From NCBI RefSeq assembly GCF_024298765.1, contig NZ_CP101210.1: DNA of 64,000 nucleotides; one strand, given 5' to 3'. The position numbers were made by a program, and so were the translations under genes. Source of the DNA: Escherichia coli (GTDB lineage Bacteria; Pseudomonadota; Gammaproteobacteria; Enterobacterales; Enterobacteriaceae). The notes under the pieces were generated by a model, which saw only the letters and a list, made by a program, of their open reading frames with translations, ran no database searches and was not told the DNA's origin. Shown in pieces: positions 7,436 to 8,502 of this stretch (the first letter of the stretch is position 1; each line of letters begins with the position of its first letter).

Positions 7436-8257
7436 ATGCGATTAGCCAGTTGTTTTGGTTATGCTGCGAACCAGATACGCCGTGACCGTCCACTGACACA
7501 TGAAGAGCTGATGCACCATGTGCCGGGGATTTTCGGGGAAGAGAAACACACGTCCCGAAGCCAGAACTATACGTACATCCCCACCATCACCGTACTGGAA
7601 AGCCTGCAGCGGGAAGGCTTTCAGCCATTCTTCGCCTGCCAGACCTGTGTGCGCGACCCGGGCCGCCGGGGATACACAAAACACATGCTGCGCCTGCGCC
7701 GTAACGGAGAGATAAACGGAGAACATGTCCCTGAAATTATTCTGCTCAACTCTCATGACGGTACCTCCAGCTACCAGATGCTGCCGGGTTACTTCAGGTT
7801 CGTCTGCCAGAACGGATGCGTCTGTGGTCAGTCTCTGGGGGAAGTGCGTGTTCCGCACCGGGGAAATGTGGTGGACAGAGTCATTGAAGGGGCTTACGAG
7901 GTGGTGGGCGTGTTTGACCGGATAGAGGAGATGCGTGATGCCATGCAGTCGCTGATTCTGCCGCCACCGGCACGCCAGGCGCTGGCACAGGCGGCACTGA
8001 CTTACCGTTATGGTGACGAACATCGGCCCGTCACCACCGCCGACATTCTGACGCCACGACGCCGGGAGGATTACGGTAAGGACCTGTGGAGTACTTATCA
8101 GACCATCCAGGAGAATATGCTGAAAGGCGGGATTTCCGGTCGCAGTGCAAAAGGAAAACGTATCCACACCCGTGCCATTCACAGCATCGACACCGATATT
8201 AAGCTCAACCGCGCATTGTGGGTAATGGCAGAAACGCTGCTGGAGAGCCAGCGCTGA
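7436..8257 (+). CDS. YafZ-like DUF932 protein, 273 aa (CP4-type prophage gene)
   Basis: Length and sequence recalled as matching the K-12 CP4-6 YafZ family; RBS AAGGAG upstream. Confidence 0.8.
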   Translation: MRLASCFGYAANQIRRDRPLTHEELMHHVPGIFGEEKHTSRSQNYTYIPTITVLESLQREGFQPFFACQTCVRDPGRRGYTKHMLRLRRNGEINGEHVPEIILLNSHDGTSSYQMLPGYFRFVCQNGCVCGQSLGEVRVPHRGNVVDRVIEGAYEVVGVFDRIEEMRDAMQSLILPPPARQALAQAALTYRYGDEHRPVTTADILTPRRREDYGKDLWSTYQTIQENMLKGGISGRSAKGKRIHTRAIHSIDTDIKLNRALWVMAETLLESQR

Positions 8258-8502
8258 TGCAGCATGTCCCTGAAGGCGTGATTCAGGCACCAGAATCACC
8301 CGACGCCCCGGAGGCGCTGCCGGGGTGTCGTTCCATTTCTGATGATGACCTGTGCGCCTGGTGTACCCGTCTGCTTTACCGTCCCGGAGAAATCAGTCTG
8401 TGCAGACTGAGTACAGGCAATGGCATCTGGCCATCCGTCTGTGACCGGAACGGTTACGCGTACGGCTGTCCGGAATTTCAGCCGAATATCATTCATCCCT
8501 GA
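8257..8502 (+). CDS. Small cysteine-rich hypothetical protein
   Basis: ATG overlaps the yafZ-like stop (TGATG); 8 cysteines in 81 aa. Confidence 0.35.
   Translation: MQHVPEGVIQAPESPDAPEALPGCRSISDDDLCAWCTRLLYRPGEISLCRLSTGNGIWPSVCDRNGYAYGCPEFQPNIIHP

What the first reader, a model, noticed from the sequence alone, without database searches (positions are those of the whole stretch)
8257..8502. Small cysteine-rich ORF overlapping the yafZ-like stop
An 81-aa ORF starts with ATG overlapping the upstream stop codon (TGATG) and contains 8 cysteines including CxxC-like spacing (CAWC), suggesting a small zinc-binding protein co-translated with the YafZ-like protein.
Basis: seen in the sequence. Interest (0 to 1): 0.25.

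Follow-up and report, generated by a model that had tools for sequence, protein, structure and literature searches.

The report
Conserved small four-cysteine plasmid/island protein
The flagged 81-codon reading frame is a real, conserved gene for a small acidic protein with four invariant cysteines (probably holding a metal ion); its function is unknown, and it belongs to an undescribed family found in mobile-DNA "establishment" gene clusters, including the pOXA-48 carbapenem-resistance plasmid.

Summary
The ORF is at 8257..8502 (+), 81 aa. Its ATG shares one base with the stop of the upstream DUF932 (yafZ/yfjQ-like) gene (TGATG). It has 6 cysteines, not 8; CAWC is correct.

It is a real gene. 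RefSeq annotates it as a hypothetical protein. Orthologues occur in about 20 Enterobacterales genera. Non-synonymous change is far below synonymous change (pN 0.25 vs pS 0.64; pN<pS in 171/171 pairs). Only this frame stays open. The stop/start overlap with DUF932 is kept in 22/22 loci, mostly without a Shine-Dalgarno sequence, which fits translational coupling.

Residues 24-76 form a ~50-aa domain with six invariant residues (D29, C33, C36, S47, C49, C71) in 124 diverse sequences. The domain is strongly acidic and the AlphaFold2 model is confident. It has no Pfam, NCBIfam, PHROGs, PADLOC or PDB relative. Free-standing homologues sit on 1,170 plasmids (1,128 conjugative) but in no phage record. 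On pOXA-48 the homologue is Orf28, in the leading region near klcA and ssb, and a published Tn-seq found it dispensable in E. coli K-12.

Best reading: a Cys4 metal-binding mini-protein of mobile-element establishment modules, possibly anti-defence. The function is inferred, not shown. The finding is modestly interesting and is a new family of a familiar kind.

The parts
7103..7336 (+). DUF905 (YkfF/YubL-like) gene, upstream neighbour in the same module
   Evidence: Pfam PF06006, E=4.8e-17. DUF905 is listed second among the leading-region-enriched families in the supplement of PMC11541004.
7436..8257 (+). DUF932 gene (273 aa, yafZ/yfjQ-like), the upstream partner whose stop overlaps the small ORF's start
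   Evidence: Pfam PF06067, E=5.8e-51. Annotated as a DUF932 domain-containing protein in CFT073 and Nissle. A 62%-identical homologue is on >=5,000 plasmids; in the one IncF plasmid inspected it is the annotated gene nearest traM on the non-tra side.
8255..8259 (+). TGATG stop/start junction (TGA of DUF932, ATG of the small ORF, 1-nt overlap)
   Evidence: Read directly from the sequence. The overlap is conserved in 22/22 Enterobacterales loci: 18 TGATG, 3 TAATG, 1 ATGA.
8257..8502 (+). The small ORF: 81 aa, 8.9 kDa, pI 4.6, 6 Cys; RefSeq WP_001164966.1 'hypothetical protein'
   Evidence: Purifying selection shown. It is the only frame open in all orthologues.
8326..8484 (+). Conserved core domain (residues 24-76): SISDDDLC-x2-C ... 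Y-x-PGE-x-S-x-C ... WP ... D-x-DGY-x3-C
   Evidence: Alignments A1 and A2. phmmer matches in other proteins cover this stretch. AF2 block-mean pLDDT is 87-95 for residues 21-80.
8338..8349 (+). S28-D29-D30-D31 acidic motif (D29 invariant; S28, D30 and D31 >=90% conserved)
8353..8364 (+). C33-A-W-C36 knuckle (both Cys invariant)
8401..8403 (+). C49 codon (invariant), at the end of predicted strand 46-49
8467..8469 (+). C71 codon (invariant), just after predicted strand 68-70
8412..8413 (+). TA dinucleotide that is duplicated in a common E. coli allele (GAGTATACAGG). The duplication frameshifts after codon 52 and removes WP, DGY and C71. The window copy is the intact form.
8596..9069 (+). Antirestriction gene (ArdB/KlcA family), downstream neighbour
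   Evidence: Pfam PF03230, E=2.8e-37. The synteny is conserved across genera.
9085..9561 (+). RadC-like JAB domain gene, next in the module
   Evidence: Pfam PF04002, E=1.5e-44. PGAP coordinates.

Best explanation
The ORF is a genuine protein-coding gene. Its product is a small (8.9 kDa), cytoplasmic, strongly acidic protein.

Residues ~24-76 form a previously undescribed ~50-residue domain. The domain is held together by one tetrahedral Cys4 site made of C33, C36, C49 and C71. Zn2+ is the most likely ligand (inferred).

In Enterobacterales chromosomal islands the protein is made by ribosomes that terminate on the DUF932 gene and restart on the overlapping ATG, so its synthesis is tied to DUF932 (inferred from conserved geometry).

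The protein itself is an independent module of the 'establishment' or leading-region gene sets of conjugative plasmids and integrated elements. These sets include ArdB/KlcA, RadC/JAB, SSB, DUF905, DUF1380 and DUF4942.

The most likely action (inferred, not shown) is binding a protein target through the invariant acidic SxSDDD face, rather than binding DNA. Such binding would help newly arrived DNA establish itself, for example by blocking a host defence or stress function.

What is shown: the coding status, the conservation, the invariant residues, the overlap geometry, the genomic contexts, and dispensability of the plasmid homologue in E. coli K-12. What is inferred: the metal binding, the reinitiation, and the cellular role.
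For: Coding status:
- PGAP annotates the ORF.
- Search results: 184 homologous clusters, 185 representatives at 50% identity, and 391 hits with a profile.
- Across 19 orthologues from different genera, pN is 0.249 and pS 0.637; in the core, 0.172 and 0.634. pN<pS holds in 171/171 pairs.
- Only the sense frame is open in 19/19 orthologues.

Domain:
- D29, C33, C36, S47, C49 and C71 are invariant in 124 diverse sequences. S28, D30, D31, Y41, P43, G44, W58, P59 and Y67 are >=90% conserved.
- The AF2 model has mean pLDDT 83.7, with 46 residues >=90. A CxxC turn and two cysteines at strand ends are predicted.
- The core's mean net charge is -6.2 over 47 residues. It is negative in 98% of members, with median pI 4.05.

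Coupling:
- The stop/start overlap is kept in 22/22 loci even where the stop codon changes from TGA to TAA. An SD-like core occurs in only 4 of 22.
- The free-standing plasmid version instead has AGGAG-N7-GTG.

Context:
- The same DUF932-ORF-ArdB-RadC order is found in Yersinia and about 20 other genera.
- tblastn hits fall on 1,170 plasmids, of which 1,128 are conjugative. There are 0 hits in 50,697 phage records and 8 among 2.9 million IMG/VR contigs.
- On pOXA-48 and pKP58-3 the gene lies 3.6-4.7 kb upstream of mobA, on the non-relaxase side. It has the same orientation as ssb and klcA, and sits between the Hha-family and DUF1380 genes.
- DUF905, DUF1380 and DUF4942 are listed among the leading-region-enriched families, and anti-defence genes there share one orientation (PMC11541004).
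- pOXA-48 'orf28' is non-essential for maintenance and for K-12 to K-12 transfer (log2FC +1.26, adjusted p 0.13; PMC12365149 supplement). That is the pattern expected of a conditional establishment or anti-defence gene. The mapping of orf28 to this gene rests on gene order.
Against: - There is no direct evidence of translation, metal binding or any phenotype.
- 49% of family members carry a fifth Cys (CxxCxxC), and the last Cys is often followed by Pro. An Fe-S cluster is therefore not excluded.
- A frameshifted allele (TA duplication) is very common in E. coli and goes unannotated. This shows the gene is dispensable in these decaying islands.
- No oriT or relaxase was identified in the window island, so 'leading region' is shown only for the plasmid homologues.
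- The anti-defence role is a guess from the neighbourhood. The pOXA-48 Tn-seq result is equally compatible with no function under laboratory conditions.
Confidence: 0.6

Rival explanations
1. The protein is an obligate partner (subunit, chaperone or regulator) of the DUF932 protein. The overlap exists to produce the two in fixed proportion for a complex.
For: The overlap is conserved in 22/22 Enterobacterales loci across about 20 genera. Both families are found in establishment regions.
Against: The family is free-standing, with its own SD and GTG start and no adjacent DUF932, on pOXA-48-type and pKP58-3-type plasmids. It follows other genes in other elements: an unknown 78-aa gene and then DUF1281. 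DUF932 occurs on >=5,000 plasmids, and in the one IncF plasmid inspected nothing like this ORF follows it. K-12's yafZ and yfjQ loci lack the ORF.
Confidence: 0.15
2. It is an iron-sulfur or redox protein (rubredoxin-like Fe, or an [Fe-S] cluster) rather than a structural zinc site.
For: There are four invariant Cys. 49% of members have CxxCxxC, and the last Cys is often followed by Pro, as in ferredoxin motifs. Scattered sub-threshold hits to Fer4, Fer4_6 and FhuF_C were seen.
Against: The fifth Cys is absent in the E. coli protein and in half the family. All Pfam Fe-S hits are far below threshold and occur in only 1-2 of 124 members. The spacing C-x2-C-x12-C-x14-26-C, with a variable last gap, fits no known cluster motif.
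Confidence: 0.15
3. It is a true antirestriction protein, as many database records name it.
For: NCBI and UniRef entries for both the E. coli protein and the IncL/M plasmid protein carry the name 'antirestriction protein'. It lies next to ArdB/KlcA genes. It is acidic, like the DNA-mimic inhibitors.
Against: It has no similarity to ArdB/KlcA (PF03230) or any other Pfam family. No paper was found on the family. Current RefSeq calls it hypothetical. The name may have spread from deletion fusions with the neighbouring ArdB gene (P0140 and P0027), which is an inference.
Confidence: 0.15
4. It is a zinc-finger DNA-binding regulator of the island or plasmid genes.
For: It is small and has a CxxC motif. 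It sits among regulators on plasmids (Hha-family RmoA upstream).
Against: The core is strongly acidic in 98% of members (mean net charge -6.2, median pI 4.05). There is no match to any DNA-binding family.
Confidence: 0.07
5. It is a chance ORF or the untranslated 3' tail of the DUF932 transcript.
For: No direct evidence of translation exists. K-12 lacks the ORF. Many E. coli copies are frameshifted.
Against: pN is well below pS at saturated synonymous divergence. Six residues are invariant across 124 diverse sequences. The frame stays open only in sense. The domain is found fused or duplicated within longer proteins.
Confidence: 0.02

Closest known systems
pOXA-48 Orf28 and its pCTX-M3 counterpart (IncL/M plasmids)
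   Same: It has the same domain: tblastn identity is 56% over residues 25-75, with all four invariant Cys and the SISDDDLC, YRPG and DANGY motifs. It lies in a module with RadC/JAB, DUF4942, KlcA and SSB. The pOXA-48 authors list it with no conserved domain.
   Different: It is free-standing, with a GTG start behind an AGGAG Shine-Dalgarno sequence and no DUF932 upstream. It is 78 aa with a different N-terminus. Tn-seq data exist for it: non-essential for maintenance and for K-12 transfer. One RefSeq pOXA-48-type record annotates an overlapping ORF in another frame.
ArdB/KlcA antirestriction proteins (Pfam PF03230)
   Same: They are the immediate or near neighbour in almost every context. The database name 'antirestriction protein' is shared. 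Both belong to leading-region modules.
   Different: There is no sequence similarity. ArdB/KlcA proteins are ~140-160 aa. No restriction assay exists for this family.
TraR/DksA-type C4 zinc-finger mini-proteins of conjugative plasmids and phages (PF01258) - recalled from general knowledge, used as a lead only
   Same: They are small (~70-80 aa) mobile-element-encoded proteins with four cysteines, and they act by binding a host protein rather than DNA.
   Different: TraR has two CxxC pairs. Here there is one CxxC plus two single cysteines separated by a variable 14-26-residue loop. There was no Pfam match to PF01258 for this protein or for any of 124 family members.
Acidic DNA-mimic inhibitors ArdA and Ocr - recalled from general knowledge
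   Same: They are strongly acidic, and ArdA is known as a leading-region protein (ArdA expression noted).
   Different: Those proteins are larger. There is no sequence or fold match for this protein.

Membership tests
Undescribed 'SxSDDD-CxxC' Cys4 mini-domain family (includes pOXA-48 Orf28) | Motif [ST]-x-S-D-D-D-x-C-x2-C ... Y-x-P-G-x2-S-x-C ... W-P ... D-x-[DN]-G-Y-x3-C with four invariant Cys | tested here: met
   The window protein carries every invariant and nearly invariant residue of alignment A2.
Undescribed 'SxSDDD-CxxC' Cys4 mini-domain family (includes pOXA-48 Orf28) | Binds one metal ion through the four cysteines | not testable with these tools
   AF2 gives a confident core, but the coordinates are not returned. 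No biochemical data are available.
ArdB/KlcA antirestriction (PF03230) | Significant match to the Antirestrict domain | tested here: not met
   hmmscan found no hit for the ORF, whereas the neighbouring gene scores E=2.8e-37. No hit among the 124 family members.
ArdB/KlcA antirestriction (PF03230) | Relieves restriction in vivo | not testable with these tools
   No experiment was found in the literature.
Classical zinc ribbons and C4 zinc fingers (e.g. zf-dskA_traR, RecR_ZnF, Zn_ribbon_RPB9) | Two CxxC knuckles and a match above the Pfam gathering score | tested here: not met
4Fe-4S ferredoxin-type domains (Fer4) | CxxCxxCxxxCP motif and a Pfam match | tested here: not met
   The third Cys is Leu in the window protein and is present in only 49% of the family. 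Fer4 and Fer4_6 hits occur in 1-2 of 124 members at E>0.1.
Translationally coupled gene pair | The start codon overlaps or abuts the upstream stop, and the geometry is conserved among relatives | tested here: met
   TGATG in the window. An overlap is present in 22/22 loci, and a stop-codon change (TGA to TAA) preserves it.
Translationally coupled gene pair | Downstream translation depends on upstream translation | not testable with these tools
   This needs reporter fusions or ribosome profiling. It is only suggested by the lack of an SD-like core in 18/22 loci.
Leading-region / establishment genes of conjugative elements | Lies within the first ORFs next to oriT on the non-relaxase side, oriented like ssb and the anti-restriction genes | tested here: inconclusive
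   Met for the plasmid homologues: 3.6-4.7 kb upstream of mobA and in the same orientation as ssb and klcA (criteria from PMC11541004). Not assessable for the window island, where no oriT or relaxase was identified. There the support is only shared neighbour families (DUF905, ArdB, RadC).
Leading-region / establishment genes of conjugative elements | Early (zygotic) expression in the recipient and benefit to establishment | not testable with these tools
   The only relevant data are from Tn-seq of pOXA-48, where orf28 is non-essential for K-12 to K-12 transfer.

The most novel reading that the evidence does not exclude
This ORF is a member of an undescribed metal-binding protein family with no detectable sequence or fold relatives. 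The family acts as a new anti-defence or host-manipulating establishment factor of conjugative elements. It is carried by pOXA-48-type carbapenem-resistance plasmids and by about half of complete E. coli genomes.
Probability: 0.3. Interest if true: 0.6.

Novelty: new member of a known kind. Interest (0 to 1): 0.35.

Why it matters
If the inferred role is right, the family adds a widespread, compact and easily testable candidate to the anti-defence or establishment genes that let resistance plasmids such as pOXA-48 enter new hosts.

There are also practical points for annotation:
- The family has no Pfam or NCBIfam model.
- It carries an unsupported 'antirestriction protein' name in many records.
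- It is annotated in the wrong frame in at least one RefSeq pOXA-48-type record.
- It is missed entirely in others.
- It is absent from E. coli K-12, which explains why nobody has data on it.

If the role is not confirmed, it remains an ordinary conserved hypothetical gene of decaying genomic islands.

Tried and rejected
Searches that found nothing:
- Pfam, NCBIfam, PHROGs and PADLOC scans of the protein found no family. A Pfam scan of all 124 family members gave only scattered sub-threshold hits to generic Cys motifs.
- A PDB sequence-profile search gave only a chance hit at E 0.23.
- Literature searches by accession numbers, by motif strings, and by DUF932, leading region, pOXA-48 and pCTX-M3 found no paper on the family. 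The exception is the pOXA-48 Tn-seq tables.

Ideas rejected:
- The idea that K-12 YkfF (79 aa) or another CP4-6 or CP4-57 gene is the K-12 counterpart: tblastn finds nothing in either locus.
- The alternative GTG start at 8218 (94 aa): it lies inside DUF932 and no consistent upstream start is conserved, whereas the ATG at the stop overlap is.
- The antisense 66-aa ORF at 8296..8496: antisense frames carry stop codons in most orthologues.
- pOXA-48 Orf38 or Orf36.1 as the homologue: Orf38 is a 164-aa DotN-like protein and Orf36.1 is Hha-like. The homologue is orf28 by gene order.

Not pursued:
- The terminator-like hairpin inside the ORF (8301-8330) was not followed up and was treated as a probable chance match.
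- A fused DUF932-linker-ORF AlphaFold run was considered and not done, because the tool returns no PAE or coordinates and the result could not be interpreted.

Full report
**1. The observation.**
- The window has an ORF at 8257..8502 on the + strand: 246 nt, 81 codons plus stop.
- Its ATG (8257-8259) shares the base A8257 with the TGA stop (8255-8257) of a 273-aa gene at 7436..8257, which is a clear DUF932 protein (PF06067, E=5.8e-51).
- The protein is MQHVPEGVIQAPESPDAPEALPGCRSISDDDLCAWCTRLLYRPGEISLCRLSTGNGIWPSVCDRNGYAYGCPEFQPNIIHP.
CAWC is correct.

**2. Where the window comes from.**
- The region is identical to many E. coli genomes, among them CFT073, Nissle 1917, ABU 83972 and ATCC 25922.
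- Window 1-19141 aligns to Nissle at >99.9% identity, except for one IS element present only in Nissle.
- The island abuts a tRNA-Asp gene at 16618-16694.
- PGAP annotates exactly this ORF as hypothetical protein WP_001164966.1.
- The gene order is DUF905, DUF932, this ORF, antirestriction (ArdB/KlcA family, PF03230), RadC/JAB, DUF987, a 214-aa unknown, CbeA antitoxin, CbtA toxin, DUF5983.

**3. Is it a gene?** Yes.
- A word-indexed search found 184 homologous clusters. An exhaustive phmmer search found 185 representatives at 50% identity. A profile search found 391 hits at E<=1e-5.
- A scan of one genome per species returned 33 loci. Of these, 26 are from Enterobacterales: Yokenella, Pluralibacter, Superficieibacter, Mixta, Citrobacter, Salmonella, Yersinia, Affinibrenneria, Enterobacter, Leclercia, Serratia, Rahnella, Kluyvera, Kosakonia, Pseudocitrobacter, Cedecea and Tenebrionibacter. 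Six are from Burkholderiales (Polaromonas, Cupriavidus, Comamonas, Hydrogenophaga and a Burkholderiales MAG), and one is from an unclassified Proteobacteria MAG.
- For 19 intact orthologues, synonymous sites are saturated (mean pS 0.637) while pN is 0.249. In the core the values are 0.634 and 0.172. pN<pS holds in all 171 pairs.
- Of the six frames, only the sense frame is free of stops in all 19.

**4. The domain.**
- Matches in distant proteins cover residues ~24-76.
- An alignment of 124 diverse sequences (A2) has D29, C33, C36, S47, C49 and C71 invariant. S28, D30, D31, Y41, P43, G44, W58, P59 and Y67 are >=90% conserved.
- The pattern is SISDDDLC-x2-C-x12-C-x(14-26)-C. C24 and C62 of the E. 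coli protein are not conserved. About half of the family has a fifth Cys (CxxCxxC).
- The N-terminal 22 residues evolve faster (pN 0.35) and are modelled at low confidence.
- AlphaFold2 with A2 gives mean pLDDT 83.7, with 46 residues >=90. It predicts three short strands, a helical turn at the CxxC, and C49 and C71 at strand ends. This picture fits a single Cys4 site, but I could not inspect coordinates.
- The core is strongly acidic: mean net charge -6.2 over 47 residues, negative in 98% of members, median pI 4.05. That argues against direct DNA binding.
- The domain also occurs at the C-terminus of ~180-340-aa proteins with unknown N-terminal parts, and once as a tandem pair.
- No signal peptide or hydrophobic segment is visible in the sequence, so metal binding is more likely than disulfides (inference).

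**5. No known relatives.**
- Pfam, NCBIfam, PHROGs and PADLOC give nothing for this protein.
- Scanning all 124 members against Pfam gives only scattered sub-threshold hits to generic cysteine motifs: RecR_ZnF in 10 members with best E 0.042, and Fer4-type in 1-2 members.
- No paper mentions the accessions or the motif.

**6. Translational coupling.**
- In all 22 Enterobacterales loci where a DUF932 gene, or a remnant of one, precedes the ORF, the stop and start overlap: 18 TGATG, 3 TAATG, 1 ATGA.
- The geometry survives a change of stop codon. Only 4 of 22 loci have even a GGAG core upstream, and there it begins 15 nt before the ATG.
- Where the gene stands alone on plasmids, it instead has AGGAG-N7-GTG.
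- Termination-reinitiation is therefore the most economical reading, but it is an inference from geometry.

**7. Context beyond E. coli.**
- tblastn finds the domain on 1,170 of 72,556 plasmids, of which 1,128 are predicted conjugative; most are Klebsiella, Enterobacter and Escherichia plasmids.
- It finds the domain in none of 50,697 phage records and in only 8 of 2.9 million IMG/VR contigs.
- On an IncL/M pOXA-48-type plasmid and on pKP58-3, the gene lies 4.7 and 3.6 kb upstream of mobA, on the non-relaxase side. It points the same way as ssb and the antirestriction gene. The local order is RadC/JAB, HTH, (DGQHR), DUF4942, Hha-family, this gene, DUF1380, klcA, ssb.
- According to Samuel et al. 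(PMC11541004), leading regions are enriched in anti-defence genes, all encoded on the T-strand. Their supplement lists DUF905, DUF1380 and DUF4942 families among the enriched families.
- DUF932 is on at least 5,000 plasmids. In the one IncF plasmid inspected it is the annotated gene nearest traM on the non-tra side, with no such small ORF after it.
- Other elements pair the small gene with DUF1281 and an unknown 78-aa gene.
- A metagenomic relative lies next to an I-type conjugation system.
- The window's DUF905-DUF932-ORF-ArdB-RadC block is thus a chromosomal version of a plasmid establishment module. The small gene and DUF932 are independent modules that happen to be coupled in the Enterobacterales islands.

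**8. Experimental data on a homologue.**
- In the Tn-seq study of pOXA-48 (PMC12365149), the gene order rmoA, orf27.1, orf28, orf29 (DUF1380), orf30, klcA matches the annotation of locus L013. The homologue is therefore orf28; this mapping by gene order is my inference.
- Orf28 is listed with no conserved domain and 96.1% identity to its pCTX-M3 counterpart.
- It is scored non-essential in both the input and the post-transfer libraries. Its log2 fold change after transfer is +1.26 (adjusted p 0.126).
- It is therefore not needed for maintenance or for transfer between E. coli K-12 strains. That fits a conditional, recipient-dependent function, but it fits no function under these conditions equally well.

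**9. State of the gene in E. coli.**
- The ORF is found in 2,608 of 5,426 complete genomes, with up to 7 copies.
- A common allele has a TA duplication at window 8412-8413 (GAGTATACAGG). It shifts the frame after codon 52 and removes WP, DGY and C71. PGAP leaves this allele unannotated. It is present in strain NCTC86, among others.
- In an evenly spaced sample of the hit list, it was the best copy in 13 of 30 records. This is a rough figure.
- The many 90-131-aa 'proteins' that match only residues 1-53 are plausibly products of this allele (inference; not checked individually). Neighbouring DUF905 genes are frameshifted in the same loci, which is typical of decaying islands.
- The window copy is intact and matches the inter-genus consensus.
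- E. coli K-12 has no copy at either DUF932 locus, yafZ or yfjQ. This likely explains the lack of expression data.

**10. Names.**
- NCBI and UniRef records often call both the E. coli protein and the plasmid protein 'antirestriction protein'. I found no experiment or homology behind that name.
- Some genomes carry deletion fusions between this ORF and the adjacent ArdB gene (P0140; P0027 with PF03230). These could have seeded the name, which is an inference.

**11. Conclusion.**
- The gene encodes a member of an undescribed, widespread, acidic Cys4 mini-domain family of conjugative-element establishment modules.
- Its mechanism is unknown. My best guess is a metal-stabilised protein-binding factor that helps incoming DNA establish, and I hold that guess with modest confidence.

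Noticed in passing
L013 6944-7190 (NZ_CP068848.1, pOXA-48-type IncL/M plasmid, record 35121-35367): RefSeq annotates a 71-aa ORF (WP_004206914.1, L013 6975-7190) in a different frame. 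It overlaps the intact Cys-rich ORF (GTG at 6944 behind AGGAG, stop at 7180). The nearly identical pKP58-3 region is annotated in the Cys-rich frame (WP_086556679.1). The conserved frame is almost certainly the real gene.
   Followed up: yes
window 8412-8413; L049 and L050 1501-1748: A TA-duplication frameshift allele of the small ORF is very common in E. coli (including NCTC86) and is left unannotated. It probably accounts for many 90-131-aa chimeric 'proteins' in the databases.
   Followed up: partly
L061 7001-7195 (Pectobacterium versatile plasmid CP051629.1): A clear homologue (49% identity) has no annotated gene in the GenBank record. It precedes a DUF1281 gene, as also in L011, which gives a second recurrent neighbourhood for the family.
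   Followed up: partly
window 9864-10508: A 214-aa ORF lies between the DUF987 and CbeA genes. It has no Pfam or NCBIfam match but a strong match to phrog_5162 (unknown function, E=7e-37).
   Followed up: no
window 7358-7387: A 13-bp-stem terminator-like hairpin with a T-run lies between DUF905 and DUF932. No sigma-70-like promoter was detected ahead of DUF932 by the simple scan.
   Followed up: no
window 11353-11845 and 11924-12271: The DUF5983 gene after CbtA is frameshifted, and an IS630-family transposase remnant follows. CFT073 has an extra IS21 (ISEc10) insertion here, and Nissle has an extra ISEc45 insertion further on.
   Followed up: partly
window ~450-4820 (by alignment to Nissle L052): Upstream in the same island lies an apparent three-gene operon: dynamin-family protein, RdcB-family protein and patatin-like phospholipase. 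It was not examined.
   Followed up: no
P0128; P0147/P0160/P0162/P0192/P0209; L046 3128-4156: The Cys4 domain occurs as a tandem pair in one protein. It also occurs at the C-terminus of several families of 180-340-aa proteins whose N-terminal parts have no Pfam match. One such gene lies beside an I-type conjugation system (PilS, DotD, TraI).
   Followed up: partly
window 16618-16694 and 24843-24919: There are two tRNA-Asp (GTC) genes. The first marks the island boundary next to dnaQ/rnhA.
   Followed up: no
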